A DNA stretch of 64,000 bases from a virus. Shown here one piece after another: positions 5,261 through 15,656 of this stretch. The stretch covers positions 1 to 64,000 of IMG/VR virus record IMGVR_UViG_3300027805_000010; one strand, 5' to 3'. Each line of letters opens with the position of its first letter. The first letter of the stretch is position 1. Both the position numbers and the translations under genes were made by a program. The notes under the pieces were generated by a model. The model ran no database searches and was not told the origin of the DNA. It saw only the letters and a program-made list of their open reading frames with translations.

Positions 5261-5333
5261 ACCCTTATAGCTCAACGGTTAGAGCAGGATCCTTATACGA
5301 TCAAGGTTATGGGTTCAAATCCCGTTAAGGGTA
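5261..5333 (+). tRNA. tRNA-Ile(UAU)
   Basis: Acceptor ACCCTTA/TAAGGGT, D arm GCTC/GAGC, anticodon loop CT-TAT-AC, T arm ATGGG-TTCAAAT-CCCGT. No encoded CCA; G-A mismatch at the top of the anticodon stem. Confidence 0.85.
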
Positions 5334-5377
5334 CTTAAACAATGTACATAATATTCATATAATAATAAACATAAACT

Positions 5378-5575
5378 ATGCGAAAGACTTTATCCTTTTT
5401 AAGAACAAATTTACTTAGCCTTCAGTCGGTTATAATGTGGCTAATGGCAATAGTAAATTTTGGCAATGACACTTTTTGGTTCTTTGCAATTCCAGCAATC
5501 ATTGTTGGTGGTATGCAAGATATCCTTGACGAAATTCGTGAAATAAGAAAAGATGGCAAACCAGAAATTTTTTGA
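5378..5575 (+). CDS. Small membrane protein
   Basis: Two hydrophobic segments; class II promoter at 5337-5364. Confidence 0.6.
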   Translation: MRKTLSFLRTNLLSLQSVIMWLMAIVNFGNDTFWFFAIPAIIVGGMQDILDEIREIRKDGKPEIF

Positions 5576-5729
5576 TGCCGACTTTCATATTGATGAAATC
5601 TTAATGGAAGCCAAAGCATATGGGCTTAGTCGAGAAGTTGATGAATATGCAAAAAAATTCTTAAAAGAAAATCCAGCTTTGGATAAAGTTGAAGCATATC
5701 AATTGGCATATCAAGAATGGATCAAATAA
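5553..5729 (+). CDS. Hypothetical protein (58 aa), not in the ORF track
   Basis: MANQKFFDADFHIDEILMEAKAYGLSREVDEYAKKFLKENPALDKVEAYQLAYQEWIK fills the gap between neighbouring genes. Confidence 0.65.
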   Translation: MANQKFFDADFHIDEILMEAKAYGLSREVDEYAKKFLKENPALDKVEAYQLAYQEWIK

Positions 5730-5923
5730 ACAATAGAAAATTTCCATGTGACCCAGATCATAACGGAGAATGCTTAGTATGCGACTGTTGGCCGAGTGAT
5801 TGCGCGTTTGATCGTTGGCTTAACAAAGACTATAAGTGGGAGACCGAGGAAGAACTTGACAAAATGTTTAAAGACTACAACAAAAAAGATTATGAAGACT
5901 ATTTACATGGATCAAACAATTAG
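5717..5923 (+). CDS. Small Cys-rich protein
   Basis: CDPDHNGECLVCDCWPSDC putative metal-binding motif. Confidence 0.5.
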   Translation: MDQINNRKFPCDPDHNGECLVCDCWPSDCAFDRWLNKDYKWETEEELDKMFKDYNKKDYEDYLHGSNN

Positions 5924-6045
5924 GTTAATTGCATCACAGGATCCTGCATATGCGCAAGAATTGATTAAGAGTGGAGTGGTTAAAGAAACCGAAGACAAAT
6001 TACCTTACCTGGTGATTGAAGAATAATTAACAAAATTAAACAGTA

Positions 6046-6333
6046 ATGAAAATTGAAGATAAAGCCCTTCTTAAAGAAGGTAAAGTATTGATTGACTTTT
6101 GGGCTCCTTGGTGTGGCCCATGCAAGATGTTAAAACCTATGGTTGAAAAATTCGCGGATGAGAAAGACGACGTTAAGGTTTACTTTTGTAATATAGATGA
6201 AGACTATGAAATGGCTGGCGCATTTAGTGTTAGAAGTATTCCTACACTTGTCTATTTAGAAGACGGCGAAATAAAAGGTCGTAAGGTTGGTGTTGTACCA
6301 CAGAGTGAGATTGAGGAAATGGTAAATTCGTAA
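6046..6333 (+). CDS. trxA: Thioredoxin
   Basis: DFWAPWCGPCK active site and SIPTL. Confidence 0.95.
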   Translation: MKIEDKALLKEGKVLIDFWAPWCGPCKMLKPMVEKFADEKDDVKVYFCNIDEDYEMAGAFSVRSIPTLVYLEDGEIKGRKVGVVPQSEIEEMVNS

Positions 6334-6334
6334 T

Positions 6335-6514
6335 ATGAATATCTTTAATATTATAGTTGTCTATCTCTCTATAGGTATTTTATGTGGAATGAGCATAGAA
6401 TCATTGATGGCAGAAACCGATCTTAATGAAAACACTACAAACGTTGAAAGATTCCTTTGGGTTACGTTTTGGCCTATCTTTGTCATCATCTTTTTATTTG
6501 GAATGAAAAAATAA
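6335..6514 (+). CDS. Small two-TM membrane protein (59 aa), not in the ORF track
   Basis: MNIFNIIVVYLSIGILCGMSIES...FLWVTFWPIFVIIFLFGMKK. Confidence 0.65.
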   Translation: MNIFNIIVVYLSIGILCGMSIESLMAETDLNENTTNVERFLWVTFWPIFVIIFLFGMKK

Positions 6515-6580
6515 TTTCAAATTACTTTCAGAACCAACAACCACTTGTTATTATTATTCTATAATCAAATAAAAACAAAT

Positions 6581-6808
6581 ATGAATAAATCTGCTGCTGC
6601 ATTTGCCCTAGGTCTATTATTACTGTTAGGTGCAATCGTTATTGGAATCTTTCTTGCATGGCCAATCCAATGGTTATGGAATAACGCCCTCGTTGGTTCT
6701 GTTAATGGAATCAATCCAATCGGATTTTGGCAGGCATACGGTATCTATATCTTAAGTACCATTATGTTTCGTAGTAATGTAAAAGCTTCATCCAATAACG
6801 ATAAATAA
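6581..6808 (+). CDS. Membrane protein
   Basis: Hydrophobic ORF (likely ATG at 6581) with WLWN and IGFWQAYG motifs; class I promoter at 6526-6556. Confidence 0.6.
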   Translation: MNKSAAAFALGLLLLLGAIVIGIFLAWPIQWLWNNALVGSVNGINPIGFWQAYGIYILSTIMFRSNVKASSNNDK

Positions 6809-6816
6809 CAACTGAT

Positions 6817-6905
6817 GGCCAGGTGGTGAAATAGGTAGACACAAGGGACTTAAAATCCCTCGGGCTGAAAAGCCCATGCGGGTTCGATTCCCGCCCTGGC
6901 TACCA
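6817..6905 (+). tRNA. tRNA-Leu(UAA)
   Basis: GGCCAGG/CCTGGCT acceptor, anticodon loop CT-TAA-AA, long variable arm, encoded CCA. Confidence 0.95.
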
Positions 6906-6910
6906 CAAAT

Positions 6911-6984
6911 GCCCGTATAGCTCAATTGGATAGAGCAACGCACTTCTAATGCGTAGGTTTCTGGTTCGAATCCAGATATGGGTA
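6911..6984 (+). tRNA. tRNA-Arg(UCU)
   Basis: GCCCGTA/TATGGGT acceptor, ACGCA-CTTCTAA-TGCGT anticodon arm, GGTTCGAATCC T arm. Confidence 0.95.
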
Positions 6985-7007
6985 CTAATTTTAAACAATT
7001 ATATAAC

Positions 7008-7268
7008 ATGGCAAATTTTAAAATCGGAGATCAAGTAAGTTGGGTAAAGAAAATGGCATGTGTGCCTCACCCTGAAGGTAGAACTGACCGCGAAGGTAAT
7101 ATCCTTCCTGTGTTTAGGGATACTGTTGTTAAAGGTAGAATTGTAGAATGGGGTGGAACCAATGCATGGTTCGTTAGACCTGAATTTGCAGAAGCTCATA
7201 AGAATAGAATCTGCGGAGAAAGGTATTATGATATTAAGATTGCTGAGCAAGATATCATTCTAGGATAA
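7008..7268 (+). CDS. Hypothetical protein (SH3/KOW-like start FKIGDQV)
   Basis: Likely start at ATG 7008; the track start lies inside tRNA-Arg. Confidence 0.6.
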   Translation: MANFKIGDQVSWVKKMACVPHPEGRTDREGNILPVFRDTVVKGRIVEWGGTNAWFVRPEFAEAHKNRICGERYYDIKIAEQDIILG

Positions 7269-7272
7269 ATAA

Positions 7273-7695
7273 AAAGACTGTCGTTCTTTGAAATAAAAAA
7301 AACAAAATTATGGAAACACTTTATTTTACTTTGGGTGTGCTTACGGTTCTGGTTGTACTTGGGGTTGTAGGTATGCTTATGGTTTGGAAAAAAGCTGCTA
7401 ATGCAGCAGAAGAAGCCCACTCCGTTTGGGATGGGATTGATTCATTGGCCGTTGATTTGGCTAAAGAAGCAGAAACTATTCATCGTCGTATAGATGAAGA
7501 ATTAACAAAAGTATCGTATAACTGCGATTCTATTGATAAAAACTTAGACGGTAAGGTTGAAGAAATTTACCGTACATTAGATTCACGTTTAGATAAACTT
7601 GAAAATAAATTAACGAAAATTTTTGAGGATGGGTGTAAACCTGTTCAAGAAAAGTAATATAATAAACAAATAAAAAATAAAGAACGACAGTTTTT
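7273..7695 (+). repeat. 17-nt inverted repeat enclosing one gene and abutting tRNA-Gly
   Basis: AAAGACTGTCGTTCTTT (7273-7289) versus AAAGAACGACAGTTTTT (7679-7695): 13 bp perfect, extended by one G-U and three A-U pairs. Confidence 0.75.
7310..7657 (+). CDS. Membrane-anchored coiled-coil protein
   Basis: N-terminal TM helix; heptad-rich LDSRLDKLENKL. Confidence 0.7.
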   Translation: METLYFTLGVLTVLVVLGVVGMLMVWKKAANAAEEAHSVWDGIDSLAVDLAKEAETIHRRIDEELTKVSYNCDSIDKNLDGKVEEIYRTLDSRLDKLENKLTKIFEDGCKPVQEK

Positions 7696-7767
7696 GCGGA
7701 TATCGTATAAAGGCTATTACTTCAGCCTTCCAAGCTGAAGATGAGGGTTCGATTCCCTCTATCCGCT
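7696..7767 (+). tRNA. tRNA-Gly(UCC)
   Basis: GCGGATA/TATCCGC acceptor, TCAGC-CTTCCAA-GCTGA anticodon arm, U discriminator. Confidence 0.95.
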
Positions 7768-7808
7768 CAATTTGGACACGGGGTCCAAAGGTTAAATTAA
7801 ATAATATC

Positions 7809-9364: not shown

Positions 9365-10198
9365 ATGGTATTACGAAATGGATCAAAGGGTCCTGAGGTT
9401 AAAAAGATTCAGGAAAAACTAGGCGTAGAGCCAACGGGTAATTTTGGCCCGAAAACAGAAGCCGCTGTAAAAGCTTGGCAAAAAGCAAACGGTCTAACCG
9501 ACGATGGTATTGTTGGACCTAACACTTTAACTAAAATGGGAATCAGTGTTTCAGCTGCCCCTACCCCAACCGCTGCACCAGTTGCAATCCCACCTTCTGC
9601 ATTTAAACTTGAAAAATTAAAAGGACATATTCCTGATGCAGTTATTGCTCAAATTCCAGATACAGCTGCAAAGTTTGGTATTACTAATATTTTAAGATTA
9701 GCTCATTTCTTAGCACAGTGTGGTCATGAGAGTGGTGGATTCAAAGCAGTATCAGAAAATCTAAATTATTCAGCTGATGGATTAAAAAAGATTTTCCCTA
9801 AGTACTTCCCTGGTAATCTTAATGAATCATACGCTCGTAATCCTGAAAAGATTGCATCAAGAGTTTATGCATCTCGTATGGGTAACGGAGATGAAGCTTC
9901 TAAAGAAGGTTTCAAATTCCGCGGTCGTGGTTATATTCAATTAACTGGAAAATCAAACTACACAAACTTTGCTAAATTCATTGGCGAAGATACTATTGCT
10001 AATCCTGATTTGGTAGCAACTAAATATCCTTTAGCTTCTGCTGCATTCTTCTTTAACTCAAATAGCCTTTGGTCAATTTGTGATAGAGGTGCTGATGATG
10101 CTACAGTTACATCAGTAACTAAAAGAGTTAACGGTGGTACTATCGGTCTTGCTGATCGTATCAAACATTTCAAAGAATACTACAACTTACTTAAGTAA
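9365..10198 (+). CDS. Endolysin: PG_binding_1 domain + GH19-family lysozyme
   Basis: FGPKTEAAVKAWQKANGLTDDGIVGPNT binding domain; HFLAQCGHESGG, ENLNYS, RGRGYIQLTG, TKRVNGGTIGLADR. Confidence 0.92.
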   Translation: MVLRNGSKGPEVKKIQEKLGVEPTGNFGPKTEAAVKAWQKANGLTDDGIVGPNTLTKMGISVSAAPTPTAAPVAIPPSAFKLEKLKGHIPDAVIAQIPDTAAKFGITNILRLAHFLAQCGHESGGFKAVSENLNYSADGLKKIFPKYFPGNLNESYARNPEKIASRVYASRMGNGDEASKEGFKFRGRGYIQLTGKSNYTNFAKFIGEDTIANPDLVATKYPLASAAFFFNSNSLWSICDRGADDATVTSVTKRVNGGTIGLADRIKHFKEYYNLLK

Positions 10199-10223
10199 AC
10201 CATAAAAAATAAAAGAAAATAAA

Positions 10224-10811
10224 ATGTACACAAGAGAACAAATTGAAGCTGCTGTTAAAGCAAAAGGATATGCTTGGTTCGAAGGAGCTAAGGATTTTGA
10301 TGTTAACATTGTTGGGGTAAGAAACTCGGCAACTGGGAATAAAGTTACAAATGTATTTGATGATACTATGACCGTTTCATATAAAGAAGGTGGAGTATGG
10401 AAATTTCATTCATGGACTTGTACTACCGATCCTGGTAAGAAAGGCGTAATGGAATATCATAATTCGGCAGGAGTTGCTAGACTTGTTGAAGGTCAGTATA
10501 GAGGTTCTCATACTTTAGGTTTACACCAAGGTAAATATGAAGCTCTTAAACAACAAAAACCTGTAAAAGTATATCGTGATGCTAACCGTGACATGACTTA
10601 TGATGAAACTAAAATTGCTGAAGGTGTCTTTGGTATTAACATTCATAAAGCAGGCGCAGATTCTACTTATGTTGAAAACTGGTCAGAAGGATGCCAAGTA
10701 TTTAAAAAAGCCGCAGACTTTGAATCATTTATGACTATCTGTAGAAAGGCTGCCGCTATTCATGGTAAGTCATTTACATATACATTAATTGAATCTTCTG
10801 ATATCAAGTAA
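10224..10811 (+). CDS. YkuD/L,D-transpeptidase-like peptidoglycan peptidase
   Basis: GINIH-x11-SEGCQV His/Cys motif; adjacent to the endolysin. Confidence 0.6.
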   Translation: MYTREQIEAAVKAKGYAWFEGAKDFDVNIVGVRNSATGNKVTNVFDDTMTVSYKEGGVWKFHSWTCTTDPGKKGVMEYHNSAGVARLVEGQYRGSHTLGLHQGKYEALKQQKPVKVYRDANRDMTYDETKIAEGVFGINIHKAGADSTYVENWSEGCQVFKKAADFESFMTICRKAAAIHGKSFTYTLIESSDIK

Positions 10812-10860
10812 TTTATACAACACTAATTTATTAACCCTTTAAAATAACTATTTATGAACA

Positions 10861-12780
10861 ATGAAAACCTTTCTAAAAAAATTGGCCATCTTAATGATGG
10901 TTATGGCGCCCTTTGTTGGGTTTTCCCAAACGGCGCCACCGGCACCAGGTAACGGAGTCTATGCAATTATAGATACCACATATCAGGTAGGTACACATAC
11001 ACAAGGATTCTCTAAAGCAAAAATTACTTTACAGAATACAACCGCTACTCTTATTACTGGTGTACAGTTTAGAGTATTCTATGACAAGAATGCATTCTCA
11101 TCTGCAACACCAACATTATTAGGATCTACATCAAACCTAAACTTACAATACGTAGATAATAATGCAGGTGGCTATTTAACAATCACTCTAGTTTATACAG
11201 GATCCTCTGCCACATATTCAATAGCAAACGGTGAAAAGTTTGAAGTAACATTTAACCACGTTGGTGCTTCTTCATTTTATGCATTATCAACAATCAGTGA
11301 TCTAACTTGGAGTGGTGTTAATACATTTAATCAATTGGCGGCAACTAATCCAGGTTTAGATACAACATTAGCATTACATAGTTATGGTGGTGTATGGGAA
11401 AAACCAGAACTTAATTATCACGGAACATTTACAAATACAACCGGAACTGGTGCTAAAAACTTAACATTAGCTCTAGAGAAAAAAGTTAAAACTGGTTCAA
11501 CTTGGTCTATTCATGATACTTATGTTACAGATATCAATGGTGATTTTGCTTTCACTGAAATTATTGATACTACATATTATGATGTACGTCTGGCAATTAA
11601 AGGTGATACGATGTCTGTGGGTAACGTTATTTCTTCGGCAGATGCTCAATTAATTAATCAATGGGTTTTAGGATCTGCAACCCCTTCAGGTTGGGACTTC
11701 TATACCGCAGATGTTAATGGATCTAACAATATATCAATTACCGATGCTTATGGTGTATTTGGTAGAATTGCTGGTAGATTCAGTGCTTGGCCTAACAGTG
11801 TAAAAGATGTTAAATTCTTTACTGTTGCTGAAAAGAATACAATCACAGGAACACCTACTACTAACTACACATCTACTATTTCAGGTGTAACTAACTTCTA
11901 TCATAATATTCTGCCAGGTCAACCTGATTCAGTTCAATTCTATGTACTAGTCCCTGGTGATGCTAATGGAACAGGATATAATATGGCCCGTGTAACTCCA
12001 ATTGAAGTTGCAATTGATCCGTTACCCGGTACACCTGCCCAACAGGAGAATGTAATTGATACTAAAGTTGAGTATGATTTTCCTACACAGTCAATAGAGG
12101 TTAATGTACCTAGCATTTCTGTTAATGAAGGAAACTTAGTAGAAATTCCAGTGAAGGTTAATACTAATGGAATTAACATTACATCGCTTCAAATGGGGTT
12201 CCTTTACGATGAAGATATCTTAGAATTTAGAGATGTATACAATTCACCAAAATCTATGTTTTGGTTATCATCCGTTAATCCTCTTGACGGAATAGTAGAA
12301 TGGGTTGGATTTGATCCATCTGCTAATAAAGCATATGCAATTGAAGATGGTTATAATATTTTTACATTACGCTTTTTAGCTAAGTCACCACAGAACGAAT
12401 GGGCACAATCTCCTCTTTATACTTCTAGAAAATTTTCAGGTGATTTTAATTCAAAGGACTTAAGTATAAATCCTGCAAACGGAATTCTAGTTGTAGCTAA
12501 AATGGCTGGTGGTTCTGGTTCAATGGAAGAAACTATTAAAGTTTATCCTAACCCAACAACTGGTGATTTTTCGGTTAGCTTTACTGTTAAAGAAGCCGGT
12601 AGAATTAAACTTTTAGTAACCGATATGAATGGCCGTATCATTAATTCAATTTTAGATAAAGATATGCCAATAGGAAAATACGTATACTATTCAAATATTG
12701 AAAATGTATCAACTGGCGTTTACTTTACAACTTTACAATCTCTTACTGAGATTGAATCTTTCAAATTAATAAAAAAATAA
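10861..12780 (+). CDS. Secreted cohesin-(prealbumin-like)-dockerin-cohesin protein with T9SS C-terminal sorting domain
   Basis: Signal peptide ..GFS|Q. Cohesin-like ITGVQFRVFYD and VEIPVKV..ITSLQMGFLYDEDILEF. Dockerin ADVNGSNNISITDA and GDANG. CTD IKVYPNPT...GVYF...FKLIKK. Confidence 0.8.
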   Translation: MKTFLKKLAILMMVMAPFVGFSQTAPPAPGNGVYAIIDTTYQVGTHTQGFSKAKITLQNTTATLITGVQFRVFYDKNAFSSATPTLLGSTSNLNLQYVDNNAGGYLTITLVYTGSSATYSIANGEKFEVTFNHVGASSFYALSTISDLTWSGVNTFNQLAATNPGLDTTLALHSYGGVWEKPELNYHGTFTNTTGTGAKNLTLALEKKVKTGSTWSIHDTYVTDINGDFAFTEIIDTTYYDVRLAIKGDTMSVGNVISSADAQLINQWVLGSATPSGWDFYTADVNGSNNISITDAYGVFGRIAGRFSAWPNSVKDVKFFTVAEKNTITGTPTTNYTSTISGVTNFYHNILPGQPDSVQFYVLVPGDANGTGYNMARVTPIEVAIDPLPGTPAQQENVIDTKVEYDFPTQSIEVNVPSISVNEGNLVEIPVKVNTNGINITSLQMGFLYDEDILEFRDVYNSPKSMFWLSSVNPLDGIVEWVGFDPSANKAYAIEDGYNIFTLRFLAKSPQNEWAQSPLYTSRKFSGDFNSKDLSINPANGILVVAKMAGGSGSMEETIKVYPNPTTGDFSVSFTVKEAGRIKLLVTDMNGRIINSILDKDMPIGKYVYYSNIENVSTGVYFTTLQSLTEIESFKLIKK

Positions 12781-12786
12781 AAAACA

Positions 12787-13110
12787 ATGTCTGAAGAAAC
12801 AAACAACATGGAAAATGATGGGACATGGTCAGGTCTTAAGAAGACTTTAATTGGTACCATCTCAACTGCAATATTAGCAGGAGGCACCTATCTAACTACT
12901 ACACTATTCGGTGGGGGTGGTGAAGATAAAGAAGAAACTAAAACTGAGCAGGCTGCGCCCGCACCGGTTGTAGTTAATGTTCAACAAAATCAGGAAAATA
13001 CGCAACAGCAAAAATCAGGTGGTACCACTGTGATTAAAGAAAGAGTTGTAGAAAAACCTGTTGAAAAGAAAGAGGAGAAGAAATCAGAATCTGAAGACGC
13101 TCCTTGGTAA
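12787..13110 (+). CDS. Single-pass membrane protein with disordered C-terminus
   Basis: TM segment LIGTISTAILAGGTYL; Q/E/K-rich tail. Confidence 0.7.
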   Translation: MSEETNNMENDGTWSGLKKTLIGTISTAILAGGTYLTTTLFGGGGEDKEETKTEQAAPAPVVVNVQQNQENTQQQKSGGTTVIKERVVEKPVEKKEEKKSESEDAPW

Positions 13111-13130
13111 TAAAAAAAACACAAATAAAC

Positions 13131-13421
13131 ATGGGAACAAAAGTAACTAAAAAACCAAATTTCTTAAAAAGAATGTTCATGGATGATAATGACATCAATG
13201 AAAAATCAGTAGTAGGGTTTGGCGCATTCTTAATGATGGTAGTTTGCCTAGCTGTTGATATTTACACCGGATTCCAAGGCAAAGAAATGCCAATCAATGA
13301 ATTCGTATTTGATGGCTTTATGGTTATTACATTAGGCGCATTTGGAATTGCTTCGGTTGATAAATTCATTACCACTAAACATGGTAAAAAAGAAGAGTCA
13401 ACTGAGGAATACATTGACTAA
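13131..13421 (+). CDS. Two-TM membrane protein (holin-like topology)
   Basis: Two hydrophobic helices and a charged C-terminus; ATG at 13131 after an A-rich leader. Confidence 0.6.
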   Translation: MGTKVTKKPNFLKRMFMDDNDINEKSVVGFGAFLMMVVCLAVDIYTGFQGKEMPINEFVFDGFMVITLGAFGIASVDKFITTKHGKKEESTEEYID

Positions 13422-13436
13422 AAATAGAAATTAGAA

Positions 13437-14156
13437 ATGAAGAATTTACTAACAACATTAGTATTAATTCTCACAACACAGATTGGTATTGCTCAGGTCG
13501 GAACTATTAAGACCGAGCAATATCAAGCTGAGTTTGAAAAGAAGCAATCTATAGATGCTTTACCTGAATATACTGATACTATTCAAATACCAATACAAAT
13601 TCTTAAGATAGGAATTAACGAGGATCTATATGAAATGTATCCTGAATTAAAAGACAAAAGAGTTGGTCTTGGTGTAACAAATATTGTTTTGGAATACCTA
13701 GAGTATACTAACCGCTTTGTGTTTACGGAGGATAAGCTTGAAATTAAAGAAAGAATGGTTCAACAGTTTAAGGCATCGGATAAAGGCTTCACTGAAAACA
13801 AAGTAGATGGTAGAGGTAAAATTAAACTCGCCAAGTATTTTGTTTATATTGAAGTTTATGACTTTTCGGTTTCCGAAGATGAGGTTATTAAAATAAACGG
13901 TGAATCAAAAACTACACAAGTTACAAGACTGGGTTTACAGGTTAGATTTGTTGATGCAGAGACAGGCGAAATTCTTATGGGATCTGGTTTAGGTGAAGCA
14001 ACAACAGTAAAGACGGTTTCTATTCTTGATGGTGTAGATGACACAGAAATCAAGTTTAATCAAAGTACGATAGGAATTACAACTAAGAAAGCCCTAGAAA
14101 CGGCTTCATCAAGAATTGTTTCTAGGATGATCAAAAAAGGAATTTTTAAATCATAA
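13437..14156 (+). CDS. CsgG/HfaB-like exported protein
   Basis: Signal peptide ..GIA|Q; GLGVTNIVLEYL..TNRF and QVRFVDAETGEIL, typical of the CsgG/TolB_N fold. Confidence 0.7.
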   Translation: MKNLLTTLVLILTTQIGIAQVGTIKTEQYQAEFEKKQSIDALPEYTDTIQIPIQILKIGINEDLYEMYPELKDKRVGLGVTNIVLEYLEYTNRFVFTEDKLEIKERMVQQFKASDKGFTENKVDGRGKIKLAKYFVYIEVYDFSVSEDEVIKINGESKTTQVTRLGLQVRFVDAETGEILMGSGLGEATTVKTVSILDGVDDTEIKFNQSTIGITTKKALETASSRIVSRMIKKGIFKS

Positions 14157-15656
14157 ATGTATCGTAAACAGATCATACTTACACTAATATTTTGGATTCT
14201 TTCTATATCAGCATATTCTCAGATTAGCTATTCATATACAGATCCATGTACAGGAGCTATTAAAACATTACAAGTTCCATCAAGCGGTGTGACTGTTACT
14301 TACTATGGGCAGGTAAATACTTTTCAACCTGCCGATTTTTATAATGGTGGTTTTGAAAGTTGGGCACAAGGTGTATTTGGGTCATTTGGAAATAATAATC
14401 CATGTGCATCAATTGTCGGCCTTCCTGCCGCGATAAATGTTGCCCAAAATACTGCAATTAATTTCTTAGGAACAATAAACACAATTTCAAGTCTATCTAG
14501 CTTAAGCAGTATAGGTGGATCATCAAACCTAATTTCAGGAGCTGTTAATAGTACACAAAATTCAACTAGTAACAGTAAGAAAGATAAATCAACCCAAGGT
14601 GGTAATGGAGGGGCATCAAATGGAAACACTTCTACGAATAACCAGAATACTAATGCAAATGGGAACACCAATGGGGGAGGCACTGGCCAAGGCCAAACAA
14701 ATGCTGGCTCCAATGGAAGTACCGGAAGTACTGGAAGTACCGAAGGCGGCACAAGCGGATCAGGCACAAGCGGATCAGGCACAAGTGGATCAGGTACAAG
14801 TGGATCAGGTACAAGTGGATCAGGTACAAGTGGATCAGGCACAAGTGGATCAGGCACAAGTGGATCAGGTACAAGTGGATCAGGCACCGAAGGTGGAACA
14901 AACACAACAAGCGAACCACCAGGGACCGAGGAAGGTGGTAAAACAAATCTTGTAGGATCATCTGTAAATTCAGTACAAAATTCAACGTCGGGTGGGAATC
15001 CTAGTAACAAAAATGGAAACCGTCCTACTGTTTTGGCAAGTTCGGATTTTGTTGGTTTCCAATTTCAGAATTCAGATGTAGCAGTAGGTGGCAAATTTAC
15101 CGGTGGTTATGCATCAATGAGATGGGACGGTGCAAGATCCTGGGGTATTAACATGGATTATACTACTGCATTAAGAGGTCCTAATATTACCGGCTATTAT
15201 GCCTTTATGAAACCAAAACGAATAGATCTTATATCAGTAACAGGTACAATAGGATTTGAGGCTCAACCTACGTTATACAGTACATTATCAGTTGGGCAGA
15301 TGTGGAGTTTAAATAAACCAAAGAATATGAAATTGGTTTATATGTTAACTGGTTCATTTGGTCAGGTTTACGGAGCTGACTTTATTGGTACTGCAGCTAT
15401 TGCTGGTGGTATGTATGATTTTAAAATAACTAATAGATTTGACTTTAAGGTATTAATGCTTTATGTTTATGCACCTTATGTTAGCTATTATAATGATATA
15501 TTACTTAAATCCCCTCATGTAGTGTTACCTATTATTGGTACTAATATTAATTTGACAAAGAGGTTTAAACTTAATATAAACACAGGTGGTGCATGGGCAG
15601 TAAAAGATGCTGCGCTTAACTACACCATTATGTTAGGAACTAGAATGTTATTATGA
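14157..15656 (+). CDS. Exported protein with Gly/Ser/Asn/Thr-rich linker and C-terminal outer-membrane beta-barrel-like domain
   Basis: Signal peptide ..AYS|Q; (GTSGS)9 linker; C-terminal amphipathic strands ending LNYTIMLGTRMLL. Confidence 0.6.
   Translation: MYRKQIILTLIFWILSISAYSQISYSYTDPCTGAIKTLQVPSSGVTVTYYGQVNTFQPADFYNGGFESWAQGVFGSFGNNNPCASIVGLPAAINVAQNTAINFLGTINTISSLSSLSSIGGSSNLISGAVNSTQNSTSNSKKDKSTQGGNGGASNGNTSTNNQNTNANGNTNGGGTGQGQTNAGSNGSTGSTGSTEGGTSGSGTSGSGTSGSGTSGSGTSGSGTSGSGTSGSGTSGSGTSGSGTEGGTNTTSEPPGTEEGGKTNLVGSSVNSVQNSTSGGNPSNKNGNRPTVLASSDFVGFQFQNSDVAVGGKFTGGYASMRWDGARSWGINMDYTTALRGPNITGYYAFMKPKRIDLISVTGTIGFEAQPTLYSTLSVGQMWSLNKPKNMKLVYMLTGSFGQVYGADFIGTAAIAGGMYDFKITNRFDFKVLMLYVYAPYVSYYNDILLKSPHVVLPIIGTNINLTKRFKLNINTGGAWAVKDAALNYTIMLGTRMLL
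14748..14882 (+). repeat. 15-bp tandem repeat x9 (GGYACAAGYGGATCA; encodes GTSGS)
   Basis: Read directly from the sequence. Confidence 0.95.

What the first reader, a model, noticed from the sequence alone, without database searches (positions are those of the whole stretch)
10861..12780. A phage protein carrying a host type IX secretion sorting signal and self-compatible cohesin/dockerin modules
Seen: the C-terminal ~80 aa (IKVYPNPT...GVYF...KLIKK) are a typical T9SS type A CTD, and cohesin-like domains flank a permuted dockerin (ISSADAQLINQWVLG..ADVNGSNNISITDA..GDANG). Inference: with both modules the protein could polymerise head-to-tail and still have a free cohesin to capture the dockerin-lectin at 15653, which has no CTD of its own.
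Basis: partly seen in the sequence, partly recalled or inferred. Interest (0 to 1): 0.78.

Follow-up and report, generated by a model that had tools for sequence, protein, structure and literature searches.

The report
Phage cohesin-dockerin scaffold with T9SS tag
A large freshwater phage of Flavobacterium-type bacteria encodes a secreted mini-scaffold (two cohesins, one dockerin, a host type IX secretion tag) that probably uses the host's export machine to display a phage lectin on the infected cell, a cellulosome-like arrangement I found no paper describing for viruses.

Summary
The ORF at 10861-12780 (639 aa) is real and sits in a phage. Its order is signal peptide, cohesin 1, small beta-sandwich (X), dockerin, cohesin 2, T9SS type A CTD. 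The CTD passes Pfam and TIGR04183 cut-offs and matches solved T9SS CTDs (Z 9.5). Both flanking domains are true cohesin folds (Z 14.4 and 14.8).

The dockerin is genuine but not permuted. It aligns end to end, in normal order, with a solved scaffoldin dockerin. Only its second Ca2+ loop is canonical, and GDANG is not part of it.

The protein is conserved in at least 154 viral contigs and leads a syntenic block of 7-8 exported-protein genes. That block always contains one CTD-less protein with a variable lectin-type head and the same X-dockerin tail (15653 here). In the cultured Flavobacterium phage immuto the gene is split into SP-Coh1-XDoc and SP-Coh2-CTD.

This fits a hierarchical assembly (lectin-XDoc to Coh1, own XDoc to Coh2-CTD) better than head-to-tail polymerisation. 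Neither has been tested, and no binding or secretion is shown. The same five-module cassette ends large metagenomic T9SS-type proteins, and phage T9SS cargo was reported in 2020. This scan had already noted the module on other phage genomes.

The parts
10861..10926 (+). Sec signal peptide (residues 1-22), predicted cleavage before Gln23 (Bacteroidetes Q-rule)
   Evidence: There is a hydrophobic window at residues 3-22. The AF2 model shows an N-terminal helix at 2-19 followed by a low-confidence stretch. Q23 is nearly invariant in 32 homologues. The Q-rule is described in PMC5837995. No dedicated signal-peptide predictor was available.
10951..11406 (+). Cohesin 1 (residues 31-182)
   Evidence: VIA-align gives Z 14.4, 2.7 A over 139 residues, to the type I cohesin 3ul4_A, and matches many other cohesins. 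Pfam Cohesin scores only 19.1-19.5 bits, E 6.5e-5 to 0.0012, below the cut-off of 24.1.
11410..11601 (+). X module: small beta-sandwich (residues 184-247), CarboxypepD_reg / SdrD_B-like
   Evidence: AF2 strands run through residues 184-247. There is a weak SdrD_B hit, and relatives hit CarboxypepD_reg and SdrD_B at the same position. The Coh-X-Doc order aligns with CipA CohI9-X-DocII (3kcp_A) at Z 13.3-13.5 over 237-239 residues.
11602..11790 (+). Dockerin (residues 248-310): degenerate loop 1, canonical loop 2, three helices
   Evidence: The single sequence matches 4uyp_B at E 0.004 by phmmer, and the 21-sequence profile at E 5e-5, colinear over the whole dockerin. Pfam Dockerin_1 scores 18.9-22.3 bits against a cut-off of 22.9. 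AF2 places helices at 259-270, 279-283 and 293-303. D261, D284, N286 and D295 are invariant.
11791..12000 (+). Post-dockerin segment (residues 311-380): one helix and three to four strands, ending in the invariant GDANGTG and conserved M375
   Evidence: AF2 confidence is high, and the segment belongs to the rigid N-terminal unit (pTM 0.76). G366 and D367 are invariant. The same segment follows the dockerin in 15653. It was not folded or searched on its own.
12001..12072 (+). Low-confidence linker (residues 381-404), at the point where phage immuto splits the gene
   Evidence: pLDDT is about 57. The immuto gp014/gp015 boundary and the in-frame TGA of L047-L049 both lie just upstream, at residue 374.
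12073..12504 (+). Cohesin 2 (residues 405-548)
   Evidence: Pfam Cohesin is over the cut-off, with protein E 1.7e-10 and a domain score of 31.7 bits. VIA-align gives Z 14.8, 2.3 A over 137 residues, to 6kgc_A. Foldseek TM is 0.75-0.80 to type I cohesins.
12532..12780 (+). T9SS type A C-terminal sorting domain (residues 558-639) plus stop codon
   Evidence: PF18962 scores 37 bits against a cut-off of 27, and TIGR04183 31.2 bits against 23. The fold matches T9SS CTDs at Z 9.5. The YPNP, GxY and KxIK motifs are conserved.
15653..17326 (+). Presumed partner: signal peptide, C-type lectin with LamG insert, C-terminal X-dockerin module (residues 399-557 = nt 16847-17323), no CTD
   Evidence: Lectin_C scores E 5e-8 and Laminin_G_3 E 2e-12. 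Its X-dockerin module is homologous to residues 209-366 of 10861 at E 7e-7. The dockerin HMM hit is weak at 14.3-15.8 bits. It occupies a conserved position and its head varies across loci.
12787..18212 (+). Rest of the co-oriented, tightly packed block: 12787 (bitopic membrane protein), 13104 (2 TM), 13437 and 17326 (CsgG/LpoB-like leads), 14157 (Gly/Ser-rich tether plus 12-strand autotransporter/OmpL-like barrel), 17757 (HExxH protein)
   Evidence: Gene spacing runs from -22 to +15 nt. Synteny holds across 38 viral loci and phage immuto. ESM Atlas gave the leads for 13437 and 14157. All six signal-peptide proteins have Gln just after the hydrophobic core.

Best explanation
This is a phage-encoded, non-cellulolytic mini-scaffoldin that exploits the host's type IX secretion system.

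Shown:
- The architecture is SP-Coh1-X-Doc-Coh2-CTD.
- It is phage-borne, strongly conserved, and embedded in a syntenic block of exported proteins.
- That block includes one CTD-less protein with a lectin-type head and an X-dockerin tail.

Inferred mechanism:
1. The protein crosses the inner membrane by Sec. Signal peptidase I cuts it before Gln23, and it folds in the periplasm.
2. Its type A CTD takes it through the host T9SS translocon to the cell surface, where it is either anchored or released.
3. Assembly is hierarchical, as in a cellulosome. Coh1 captures the X-dockerin of the lectin (15653). The scaffold's own X-dockerin plugs into Coh2 next to the CTD. In phage immuto, where adaptor (SP-Coh1-XDoc) and anchor (SP-Coh2-CTD) are separate proteins, this contact would be intermolecular. 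In the fused form here it would be within one chain or between chains.
4. The CTD-less partner reaches the outside by one of three routes: riding pre-assembled through the T9SS, passing another route encoded in the block (CsgG-like or barrel proteins), or being released at lysis.

Net effect: the infected cell or its debris becomes coated with a phage-chosen, lineage-variable carbohydrate-binding head. The most likely purpose is to make cells stick to each other or to particles (host capture), or to mask receptors against superinfection or loss of progeny.
For: Architecture: HMM and fold evidence supports every module.

Phage origin and conservation:
- The record is viral and carries structural and lysis genes.
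- More than 1,600 homologues were found, the best 120 all full length.
- 154 IMG/VR loci carry the gene, 151 of them in fused form.
- A homologue exists in the cultured Flavobacterium phage immuto.

Operon context:
- Synteny holds in 38 loci.
- Each locus has one partner gene with a variable head (322-570 aa) and a conserved X-dockerin tail.
- The same tail is fused elsewhere to PA14, GEVED and Ig heads.
- The record has two cohesins, two dockerins and one CTD.

Hierarchy:
- Immuto shows a natural fission, with a separate signal peptide on Coh2-CTD.
- Coh1 and Coh2 are unrelated in sequence.
- The Coh-X-Doc order matches CipA CohI9-X-DocII, 3kcp_A.
- Partner-tail distances correlate with Coh1 (r 0.42, p 0.006; partial r 0.43) and not with Coh2 (r 0.13; partial r -0.39).

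Bacteroidota export signature: Gln follows the signal peptide in all six exported proteins of the block (PMC5837995).

Precedent: phage T9SS cargo has been reported (PMC7468147).

Presence in RNA libraries: a freshwater metatranscriptome holds contigs identical to parts of the gene. This is weak evidence.
Against: - No binding, secretion or localisation data exist.
- Dockerin loop 1 cannot bind Ca2+ canonically, and both dockerin HMM scores are under Pfam's cut-off. Pairing competence is therefore assumed.
- The Mantel signal rests on 21 related sequences and is modest. The scaffold's own dockerin also co-varies with Coh1 (r 0.90), which would equally fit Doc binding Coh1.
- Hitchhiking of CTD-less partners through the T9SS is, to my knowledge, not established.
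- Non-cellulosomal cohesin and dockerin modules often have unknown or different partners.
- The same cassette at the end of large metagenomic T9SS-type proteins hints at a generic stalk or anchor role that needs no separate partner.
- The host, and whether it has a T9SS, is inferred and not identified.
Confidence: 0.55

Rival explanations
1. Self-polymerising lattice. The dockerin of one molecule binds a cohesin of the next, giving head-to-tail chains on the cell surface. The spare cohesin captures the lectin.
For: Dockerin and cohesins sit in one chain. The same Coh-X-Doc-Coh-CTD cassette recurs in single-chain large proteins, which suggests the cassette interacts with itself. The scaffold's dockerin co-varies strongly with Coh1 (r 0.90). 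The immuto split implies that a Doc-Coh2 contact can be intermolecular.
Against: Nothing distinguishes intermolecular from intramolecular docking in the fused form. The linker before Coh2 is about 20-25 flexible residues, which permits fold-back. An independent BFVD model of a 58%-identical homologue superposes on the full-length model at TM 0.80, which hints at a defined compact monomer. In immuto the two-protein form would cap at a 1:1:1 complex and could not form a polymer.
Confidence: 0.15
2. A stand-alone secreted or surface coat protein. The cohesin and dockerin folds serve as Ig-like or Ca2+-stabilised spacer or adhesin domains without specific Coh-Doc pairing. The protein would change the cell surface by itself, for example for superinfection exclusion, receptor masking or adhesion.
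For: The dockerin is sub-threshold and has one degenerate loop. Cohesin-like and dockerin-like modules are common outside cellulosomes, where their partners are mostly unknown (established knowledge). The cassette behaves as a generic C-terminal stalk in FG-GAP, LVIVD and cadherin-headed proteins.
Against: The dockerin's canonical ligands D284, N286 and D295 are invariant down to 22% identity. A second X-dockerin on a CTD-less lectin sits in the same operon in every locus. The 2:2 module count and the natural fission would all have to be coincidences.
Confidence: 0.18
3. An envelope or lysis accessory. The block works inside the periplasm and outer membrane late in infection, for example weakening or bridging the envelope like spanins or modifying the outer membrane for release. 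The CTD serves only to insert or park the protein at the outer membrane.
For: The block lies next to the GH19-type endolysin and a second lysis-type gene in this and most related loci. It contains two small membrane proteins at 12787 and 13104. Earlier scan notes on sister genomes stress the same adjacency.
Against: The endolysin's orientation and distance vary among loci. In immuto the block sits beside nuclease and RNR genes, not lysis genes. Lectin, PA14 and GEVED heads point to extracellular ligand binding. No spanin-like lipoprotein is present.
Confidence: 0.08

Closest known systems
Cellulosomal scaffoldin CipA with anchoring protein SdbA of Acetivibrio (Clostridium) thermocellum (CohI9-X-DocII fragment, PDB 3KCP)
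   Same: The N-terminal half has the same cohesin, X module, dockerin order and aligns over 237-239 residues at Z 13.3-13.5. The proposed logic is also the same: a cargo dockerin binds a scaffold cohesin, and the scaffold X-dockerin binds a cohesin on a surface-anchoring module.
   Different: Here adaptor and anchor are fused in one chain. Anchoring is by a T9SS type A CTD in a didermic Bacteroidota host, not by SLH domains on a Gram-positive wall. The cargo is a lectin-type binding head, not a glycoside hydrolase, and there is no CBM. Dockerin loop 1 is degenerate. The gene is viral.
C-terminal Coh-CarboxypepD_reg-Dockerin-Coh-Por_Secre_tail cassette of large metagenomic T9SS-type proteins (e.g. 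P0198, 1354 aa, FG-GAP head; also P0245, P0240, P0218)
   Same: The five modules come in the same order. Coh2-CTD aligns with P0198 residues 1117-1350 at 25% identity, E 8e-16. This is probably the kind of gene from which the phage cassette derives.
   Different: Those proteins carry large heads (FG-GAP, LVIVD, cadherin-like) in the same chain, and their organisms are unknown. The phage version is the headless cassette with its own signal peptide, and the head (lectin) is supplied in trans on a second X-dockerin protein.
Flavobacterium phage vB_FspM_immuto gp014 ('hypothetical') and gp015 ('cohesin domain-containing protein'), NC_055915
   Same: These are orthologues at 31-35% identity over 94% of the query. 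They have the same neighbours: C-type lectin with X-dockerin, a small TM protein, a CsgG-like protein and a barrel protein.
   Different: The gene is split after the GD-x-NGTG motif into SP-Coh1-XDoc (no CTD) and SP-Coh2-CTD, each with its own Q-rule signal peptide. The block lies beside nuclease and RNR genes, not the endolysin. No function has been published that I could find.
Phage-encoded T9SS cargo of 'Cryophage' (Bellas et al. 2020, Nat Commun, PMC7468147)
   Same: These are phage genes carrying T9SS type A sorting domains. The authors propose that they hijack the host system, that they vary between phage variants, and that they may act in competition or superinfection.
   Different: The Cryophage cargo are enzyme or PA14 proteins that each carry their own CTD. 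No cohesin-dockerin scaffold or CTD-less partner was described.
Partial curli (CsgF/CsgG) cluster of pelagimyophages (Zaragoza-Solas et al. 2020, PMC7029224)
   Same: This is another conserved block of exported envelope proteins in large aquatic myophages. Its function is unknown, and its authors proposed a 'sibling capture' aggregation role. The block here also holds two CsgG-like leads.
   Different: The host phylum and secretion route differ, and there are no cohesin, dockerin, lectin or T9SS elements. This comparison concerns the surrounding block, not the protein itself.

Membership tests
T9SS type A C-terminal sorting domain (TIGR04183 / PF18962) | HMM score above the curated cut-off, located at the extreme C-terminus | tested here: met
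   PF18962 scores 37 bits against 27, at residues 561-632. TIGR04183 scores 31.2 bits against 23, at residues 561-639. The six-frame search gives 40.7 bits.
T9SS type A C-terminal sorting domain (TIGR04183 / PF18962) | Ig-like beta-sandwich fold of solved CTDs | tested here: met
   Z 9.5, 2.5 A over 75-77 residues, to mirolase CTD 8qb1_A and T9SS-bound NucA 8glk_D. PorU 6za2 and PorZ 5m11 also match. Unrelated Ig-like domains score about the same, so the fold alone is not specific.
T9SS type A C-terminal sorting domain (TIGR04183 / PF18962) | N-terminal Sec signal peptide, since cargo must first reach the periplasm | tested here: met
   Hydrophobic residues 3-22 are followed by a nearly invariant Gln23. 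This rests on heuristics only; no SignalP-type tool was available.
T9SS type A C-terminal sorting domain (TIGR04183 / PF18962) | CTD-dependent secretion by a host T9SS | not testable with these tools
   The host is not identified. The relative immuto infects Flavobacterium sp. LMO8. That Flavobacterium has a T9SS is general knowledge and was not tested here.
Cohesin (PF00963) | HMM score above the gathering cut-off | tested here: met
   The whole protein scores 41.6 bits against 24.1. Coh2 alone scores 31.7 bits, which is met. Coh1 alone scores 19.1-19.5 bits, which is not met by sequence.
Cohesin (PF00963) | Nine-stranded jelly-roll beta-sandwich of solved cohesins | tested here: met
   Coh1 gives Z 14.4 (3ul4_A, 2.7 A over 139 residues). 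Coh2 gives Z 14.8 (6kgc_A, 2.3 A over 137 residues). The top 10-20 hits for each are all cohesins.
Cohesin (PF00963) | Binds a dockerin | not testable with these tools
   No complex prediction or coordinates were available. There is only contextual evidence.
Dockerin (PF00404) | HMM score above the gathering cut-off | tested here: not met
   Scores are 18.9 bits in the whole protein, 22.3 bits for the isolated segment and 20.8 bits in the six-frame search, against a cut-off of 22.9. Relatives with the same cassette do pass: P0212 at 25.2 and P0198 at 25.1 bits.
Dockerin (PF00404) | Colinear homology to a solved dockerin over both duplicated segments | tested here: met
   The family profile matches 4uyp_B (ScaB dockerin) at E 5.1e-5 and 26.8 bits, positions 7-73 against 3-70 of 75. 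The single sequence gives E 0.004.
Dockerin (PF00404) | Two EF-hand-like Ca2+ loops (ligands at positions 1, 3, 5 and 12), each followed by a helix | tested here: inconclusive
   Loop 2 (D284, N286, S288, D295) is canonical and invariant. Loop 1 is one residue longer and has M251 and V253 at positions 3 and 5. The three helices are present in the AF2 model. One Ca2+ site is likely (inference).
Cellulosome-type scaffoldin system | Scaffold with cohesin(s), a separate dockerin-bearing partner, and a cell-surface anchoring module | tested here: met
   The test was at architecture level only: two cohesins and a CTD in 10861, and an X-dockerin on 15653.
Cellulosome-type scaffoldin system | Dockerin-bearing carbohydrate-active enzymes and a scaffold CBM | tested here: not met
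   No CBM or glycoside hydrolase domain was found in the scaffold, in the partner, or in the other X-dockerin proteins scanned. Partner heads are lectin, LamG, PA14 or GEVED. It works like a scaffoldin but is not a cellulosome.

The most novel reading that the evidence does not exclude
A whole clade of large Flavobacteriia phages carries a virus-encoded cohesin-dockerin display system. A T9SS-tagged anchor and adaptor take CTD-less, lineage-variable lectins to the surface of the infected cell, either by hitchhiking as a folded complex through the T9SS or through the CsgG-like or barrel proteins of the same operon. The virus thereby reprogrammes what its host cell sticks to before lysis, capturing new hosts or particles or masking receptors. 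This would be the first viral cellulosome-like system and the first case of Coh-Doc-mediated piggy-back export through the T9SS.
Probability: 0.3. Interest if true: 0.8.

Novelty: new variant of a known kind. Interest (0 to 1): 0.62.

Why it matters
If the model holds, it has four consequences.

1. Cohesin-dockerin assembly, so far a bacterial and archaeal device, is also a viral tool.
2. Phages of Bacteroidota systematically use the host T9SS to remodel the surface of the infected cell. They would do so not just with single enzymes, as noted once before, but with a modular scaffold and exchangeable binding heads.
3. It offers a concrete way to ask whether CTD-less proteins can ride through the T9SS bound to a CTD-bearing partner.
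4. It may bear on how phages find hosts in dilute freshwater, through aggregation or 'host capture', or on how they avoid superinfection.

The system is experimentally reachable. A cultured phage-host pair (immuto and Flavobacterium sp. LMO8) carries the naturally split version, and F. johnsoniae T9SS mutants exist.

The family is abundant. I found more than 1,600 proteins and at least 154 viral contigs, and near-identical DNA in freshwater, lake, estuary and plankton metagenomes of at least seven studies.

Tried and rejected
- Permuted dockerin: rejected. The alignment to 4uyp_B is colinear.
- Natural split forms without a signal peptide (P0133 and P0144, which start at 'MAR...'): rejected as gene-calling artefacts. 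Their 98-99% identical IMG/VR relatives are fused, and 151 of 154 loci are fused. Only L047-L049 carry a real in-frame TGA.
- Megablast against phage GenBank records found no match. PHROGs gave no hit for this protein or its exported neighbours.
- Two scans of genome contigs found no bacterial relative. These scans are pattern-limited, so they do not show the family is confined to phages.
- Relatives of a virus record cannot be drawn.
The contexts of the 200-360 kb contigs and of the cassette-bearing large proteins, and their taxonomy, could therefore not be read. The listing of cluster members gave no names or taxa.
- Promoters: sigma-70-like sites are fewer than in shuffled sequence. No Bacteroidota TAnnTTTG motif lies on the + strand between 9446 and 13943, and the motif is not enriched in the window. 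No promoter is assigned.
- Expression: RNA-library contigs identical to parts of 10592-14482 exist in one freshwater metatranscriptome. Contigs cannot prove transcription, and DNA carry-over is possible.
No multimer prediction was possible.
- Literature searches combining phage or bacteriophage with cohesin, dockerin, T9SS or type IX secretion found no description of a phage cohesin-dockerin system. The library lacks most subscription journals.
Full report
**What is there.** The ORF at 10861-12780 (+) encodes 639 aa. The window belongs to an IMG/VR virus record of 78.6 kb, rated about 30% complete. The window also holds an ATP-dependent DNA ligase, tail-fibre and baseplate-wedge genes, a GH19-type endolysin at 9365-10198 and four tRNAs. 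G+C is an even 0.33-0.36 around the gene. The phage context is therefore sound. Related viral contigs reach 217-292 kb, so this is probably a very large (jumbo-size) phage.

**Checking the observation.** Pfam finds Cohesin (E 1.7e-10, two stretches), Por_Secre_tail (E 4.1e-9, above cut-off) and a sub-threshold Dockerin_1 (18.9 bits against 22.9). NCBIfam TIGR04183 is above its cut-off.

An AlphaFold2 model built on 32 homologues has pLDDT 86 and pTM 0.67. It gives this layout:
- signal helix 2-19
- beta-sandwich 30-180
- small beta-sandwich 184-247
- three short helices at 259-303, then a helix and strands to 380
- weak linker 381-400
- beta-sandwich 400-546
- weak linker 548-557
- beta-sandwich 560-638

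VIA-align against 48,161 PDB representatives puts residues 408-548 on type I cohesins (Z 14.8, 2.3 A over 137 residues). It puts 554-639 on solved T9SS CTDs (Z 9.5: mirolase CTD, PorU, PorZ, NucA inside the T9SS). The N-terminal half, folded alone, has pLDDT 90 and pTM 0.76. Its residues 31-182 land on type I cohesins at Z 14.4, 2.7 A over 139 residues. Both flanking domains are thus real cohesin folds, although Coh1 is under Pfam's threshold by sequence.

The dockerin is real but not permuted. Residues 247-314 align colinearly with the entire ScaB dockerin 4uyp_B, at E 0.004 for the single sequence and E 5e-5 for a 21-sequence profile. Across homologues down to 22% identity, D261, D284, N286 and D295 are invariant. 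Loop 2 (D-x-N-x-S...D) is canonical. Loop 1 is a residue too long, with Met and Val at ligand positions, so probably only one Ca2+ site remains (inference).

**Family and context.** The word-indexed search found 1,669 relatives. The best 120 are all full length (620-658 aa, 56-99% identity), and 119 of them carry both Cohesin and Por_Secre_tail. They lie on contigs of up to 358 kb. In the exhaustive 50%-cluster library only about a dozen clusters are full length, down to 22-30% identity. I fetched 154 IMG/VR loci that contain the gene.

In the first 38 loci the order 10861 / 12787 / (13104) / 13437 / 14157 / 15653 / 17326 / 17757 is kept wherever the contig extends. The endolysin is nearby, but its orientation varies.

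The genes are packed with spacings of -22 to +15 nt. Six of the eight proteins have signal peptides followed by Gln. This is the Bacteroidetes Q-rule (PMC5837995), which has also been noted for Porphyromonas phage proteins (PMC10367356). The other two are small membrane proteins. By ESM Atlas leads, 13437 is CsgG/LpoB-like, and 14157 ends in a 12-strand autotransporter/OmpL-like barrel. The block ends before a PNKP-type phosphatase and kinase pair.

**The partner.** 15653 (557 aa) has a signal peptide, a C-type lectin with a LamG insert and no CTD. The record holds only one CTD. Its last roughly 160 residues are homologous to residues 209-366 of the scaffold (27% identity, E 7e-7). The shared piece runs from the X beta-sandwich through the dockerin and the following segment, so it is an 'X-dockerin' module. 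The record contains exactly two cohesins and two dockerin-like segments.

Each related locus has one such gene at the same place. Its head varies (322, 329-335, 359, 390, 540-559 or 569-570 aa) while the X-dockerin tail is conserved. Elsewhere the same tail is attached to PA14, GEVED and Ig heads. A constant docking module with variable binding heads is the hallmark of a cohesin-dockerin system.

**Which dockerin goes where.** Four pieces of indirect evidence favour a hierarchy over self-polymerisation.
1. Coh1 and Coh2 have no detectable sequence similarity, and the two X-dockerins are only 27% identical. That makes two specificities plausible.
2. The N-terminal Coh-X-Doc aligns as a unit with CipA CohI9-X-DocII (3kcp_A, Z 13.3-13.5). 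That part of the scaffoldin receives cargo on its cohesin and plugs its X-dockerin into an anchoring cohesin.
3. In the cultured Flavobacterium phage immuto the gene is split right after the GD-x-NGTG motif. The products are gp014 (SP-Coh1-XDoc, no CTD) and gp015 (its own signal peptide MKSWIVILLLSINSLYSQ|V, then Coh2 and the CTD). All three proteins (lectin gp013, gp014 and gp015) are connected only if gp014's dockerin binds gp015's cohesin and the lectin's dockerin binds Coh1.
4. Among 21 loci, divergence of the partner's tail correlates with Coh1 (Mantel r 0.42, p 0.006; partial r 0.43). It does not correlate with Coh2 (r 0.13; partial r -0.39).

The fourth point is a lead only. The sequences are related to one another, and the scaffold's own dockerin co-varies with Coh1 as well (r 0.90).

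An independent BFVD model of a 58%-identical phage homologue superposes on my full-length model at TM 0.80, which hints at a defined compact conformation.

**Origin.** The same five modules in the same order (Cohesin, CarboxypepD_reg, Dockerin, Cohesin, Por_Secre_tail) end large metagenomic proteins with FG-GAP, LVIVD or cadherin-like heads. Coh2-CTD aligns with one of them at E 8e-16. The phage protein therefore looks like a headless copy of a pre-existing T9SS-cargo cassette, with the head supplied in trans. I could not establish the organisms of these proteins.

**Mechanism.** My preferred model has four steps:
1. Sec export and cleavage before Gln23.
2. Periplasmic folding.
3. CTD-guided passage through the host T9SS.
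4. Hierarchical Coh-Doc assembly with the lectin on the outside of the infected cell, or on released material.

How the CTD-less partner crosses the outer membrane is open. It could hitchhike as a folded complex, use the CsgG-like or barrel proteins of the block, or be released at lysis. The biological purpose is inferred. It may be adhesion or aggregation, comparable to the 'sibling capture' idea for the pelagimyophage curli cluster (PMC7029224). Alternatively it may be receptor masking or superinfection exclusion, as suggested for the T9SS cargo of Cryophage (PMC7468147). No step after the architecture has been shown.

**Known or new.** Phage-encoded T9SS cargo has been reported once (PMC7468147). 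GenBank and UniProt auto-annotations already say 'cohesin domain-containing protein' for immuto gp015 and 'Secretion system C-terminal sorting domain' for an uncultured phage homologue. I found no paper describing a phage cohesin-dockerin system. This scan has noted the same module on other phage genomes, with two follow-ups reaching similar views of the block. I rate it a new variant of known kinds: a scaffoldin-type Coh-Doc system, and phage T9SS cargo.

**Occurrence.** Near-identical DNA (44-82% of sampled words) is held by freshwater, lake, estuary and plankton metagenomes of at least seven studies. One freshwater metatranscriptome holds contigs identical to parts of 9413-14482, including three pieces inside this gene. 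That is compatible with expression but does not prove it.

Noticed in passing
L047:639-2531, L048 and L049:4001-5893 (IMG/VR relatives): Three related phage contigs carry an in-frame TGA exactly at the adaptor/anchor boundary (GTGI-TGA-MARLTP, against GTGYHMAR in 151 other loci). The stop is conserved despite about 17-25% synonymous divergence. The 261 codons after it stay open and under purifying selection (pN/pS 0.11-0.22). That suggests programmed read-through or re-initiation, which would give both a free adaptor and the full scaffold.
   Followed up: partly
L002:7010-8834 (Flavobacterium phage immuto gp014/gp015, NC_055915): This is a natural fission of the scaffold into SP-Coh1-XDoc and SP-Coh2-CTD, each with its own Q-rule signal peptide, in a cultured phage-host pair. 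That makes it an experimentally tractable version of the system.
   Followed up: yes
window 15653-17326; also P0216, P0246 and L002:5939-6937: The partner proteins start, right after the signal peptide, with a strand-like motif (TFTHSGYIRNADGSGAINVPVKLYKRT). It resembles the first strands of the scaffold's X module (YHGTFTNTTGTGAKNLTLALEKKV). The lectin or PA14 head therefore seems to be inserted into a loop of the X beta-sandwich rather than placed in front of it. This was seen by eye and in the conserved N-termini and was not tested statistically.
   Followed up: no
P0203 (266 aa, metagenomic): An X-dockerin module is fused to an Mtd_N (major tropism determinant, tail-fibre type) N-terminus without a signal peptide. 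In some phages the module may therefore sit on virion fibres. It comes from a 1.2 kb contig, so it could be a fragment.
   Followed up: no
window 14157-15656: This 499-aa exported protein has a small Cys-containing N-domain and about 170 aa of Gly/Ser/Thr/Asn-rich low complexity that includes SGTSG repeats. Its C-terminal roughly 200 aa match 12-strand autotransporter, OmpL and KdgM barrels in ESM Atlas models (TM 0.76-0.85). It may be an autotransporter-like surface tether in the same operon.
   Followed up: partly
window 17757-18212: The last gene of the block encodes a 151-aa exported protein with an HESFH (HExxH-type) motif and no Pfam or PHROG hit.
   Followed up: no
window 18277-19137: A polynucleotide kinase/phosphatase pair is split into two genes: HAD_PNKP phosphatase (E 6e-33) and an AAA_33 kinase. 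It lies directly after the exported-protein block.
   Followed up: no
window 5261-7768: The window carries a cluster of four phage tRNAs: Ile-TAT, Leu-TAA, Arg-TCT and Gly-TCC.
   Followed up: no
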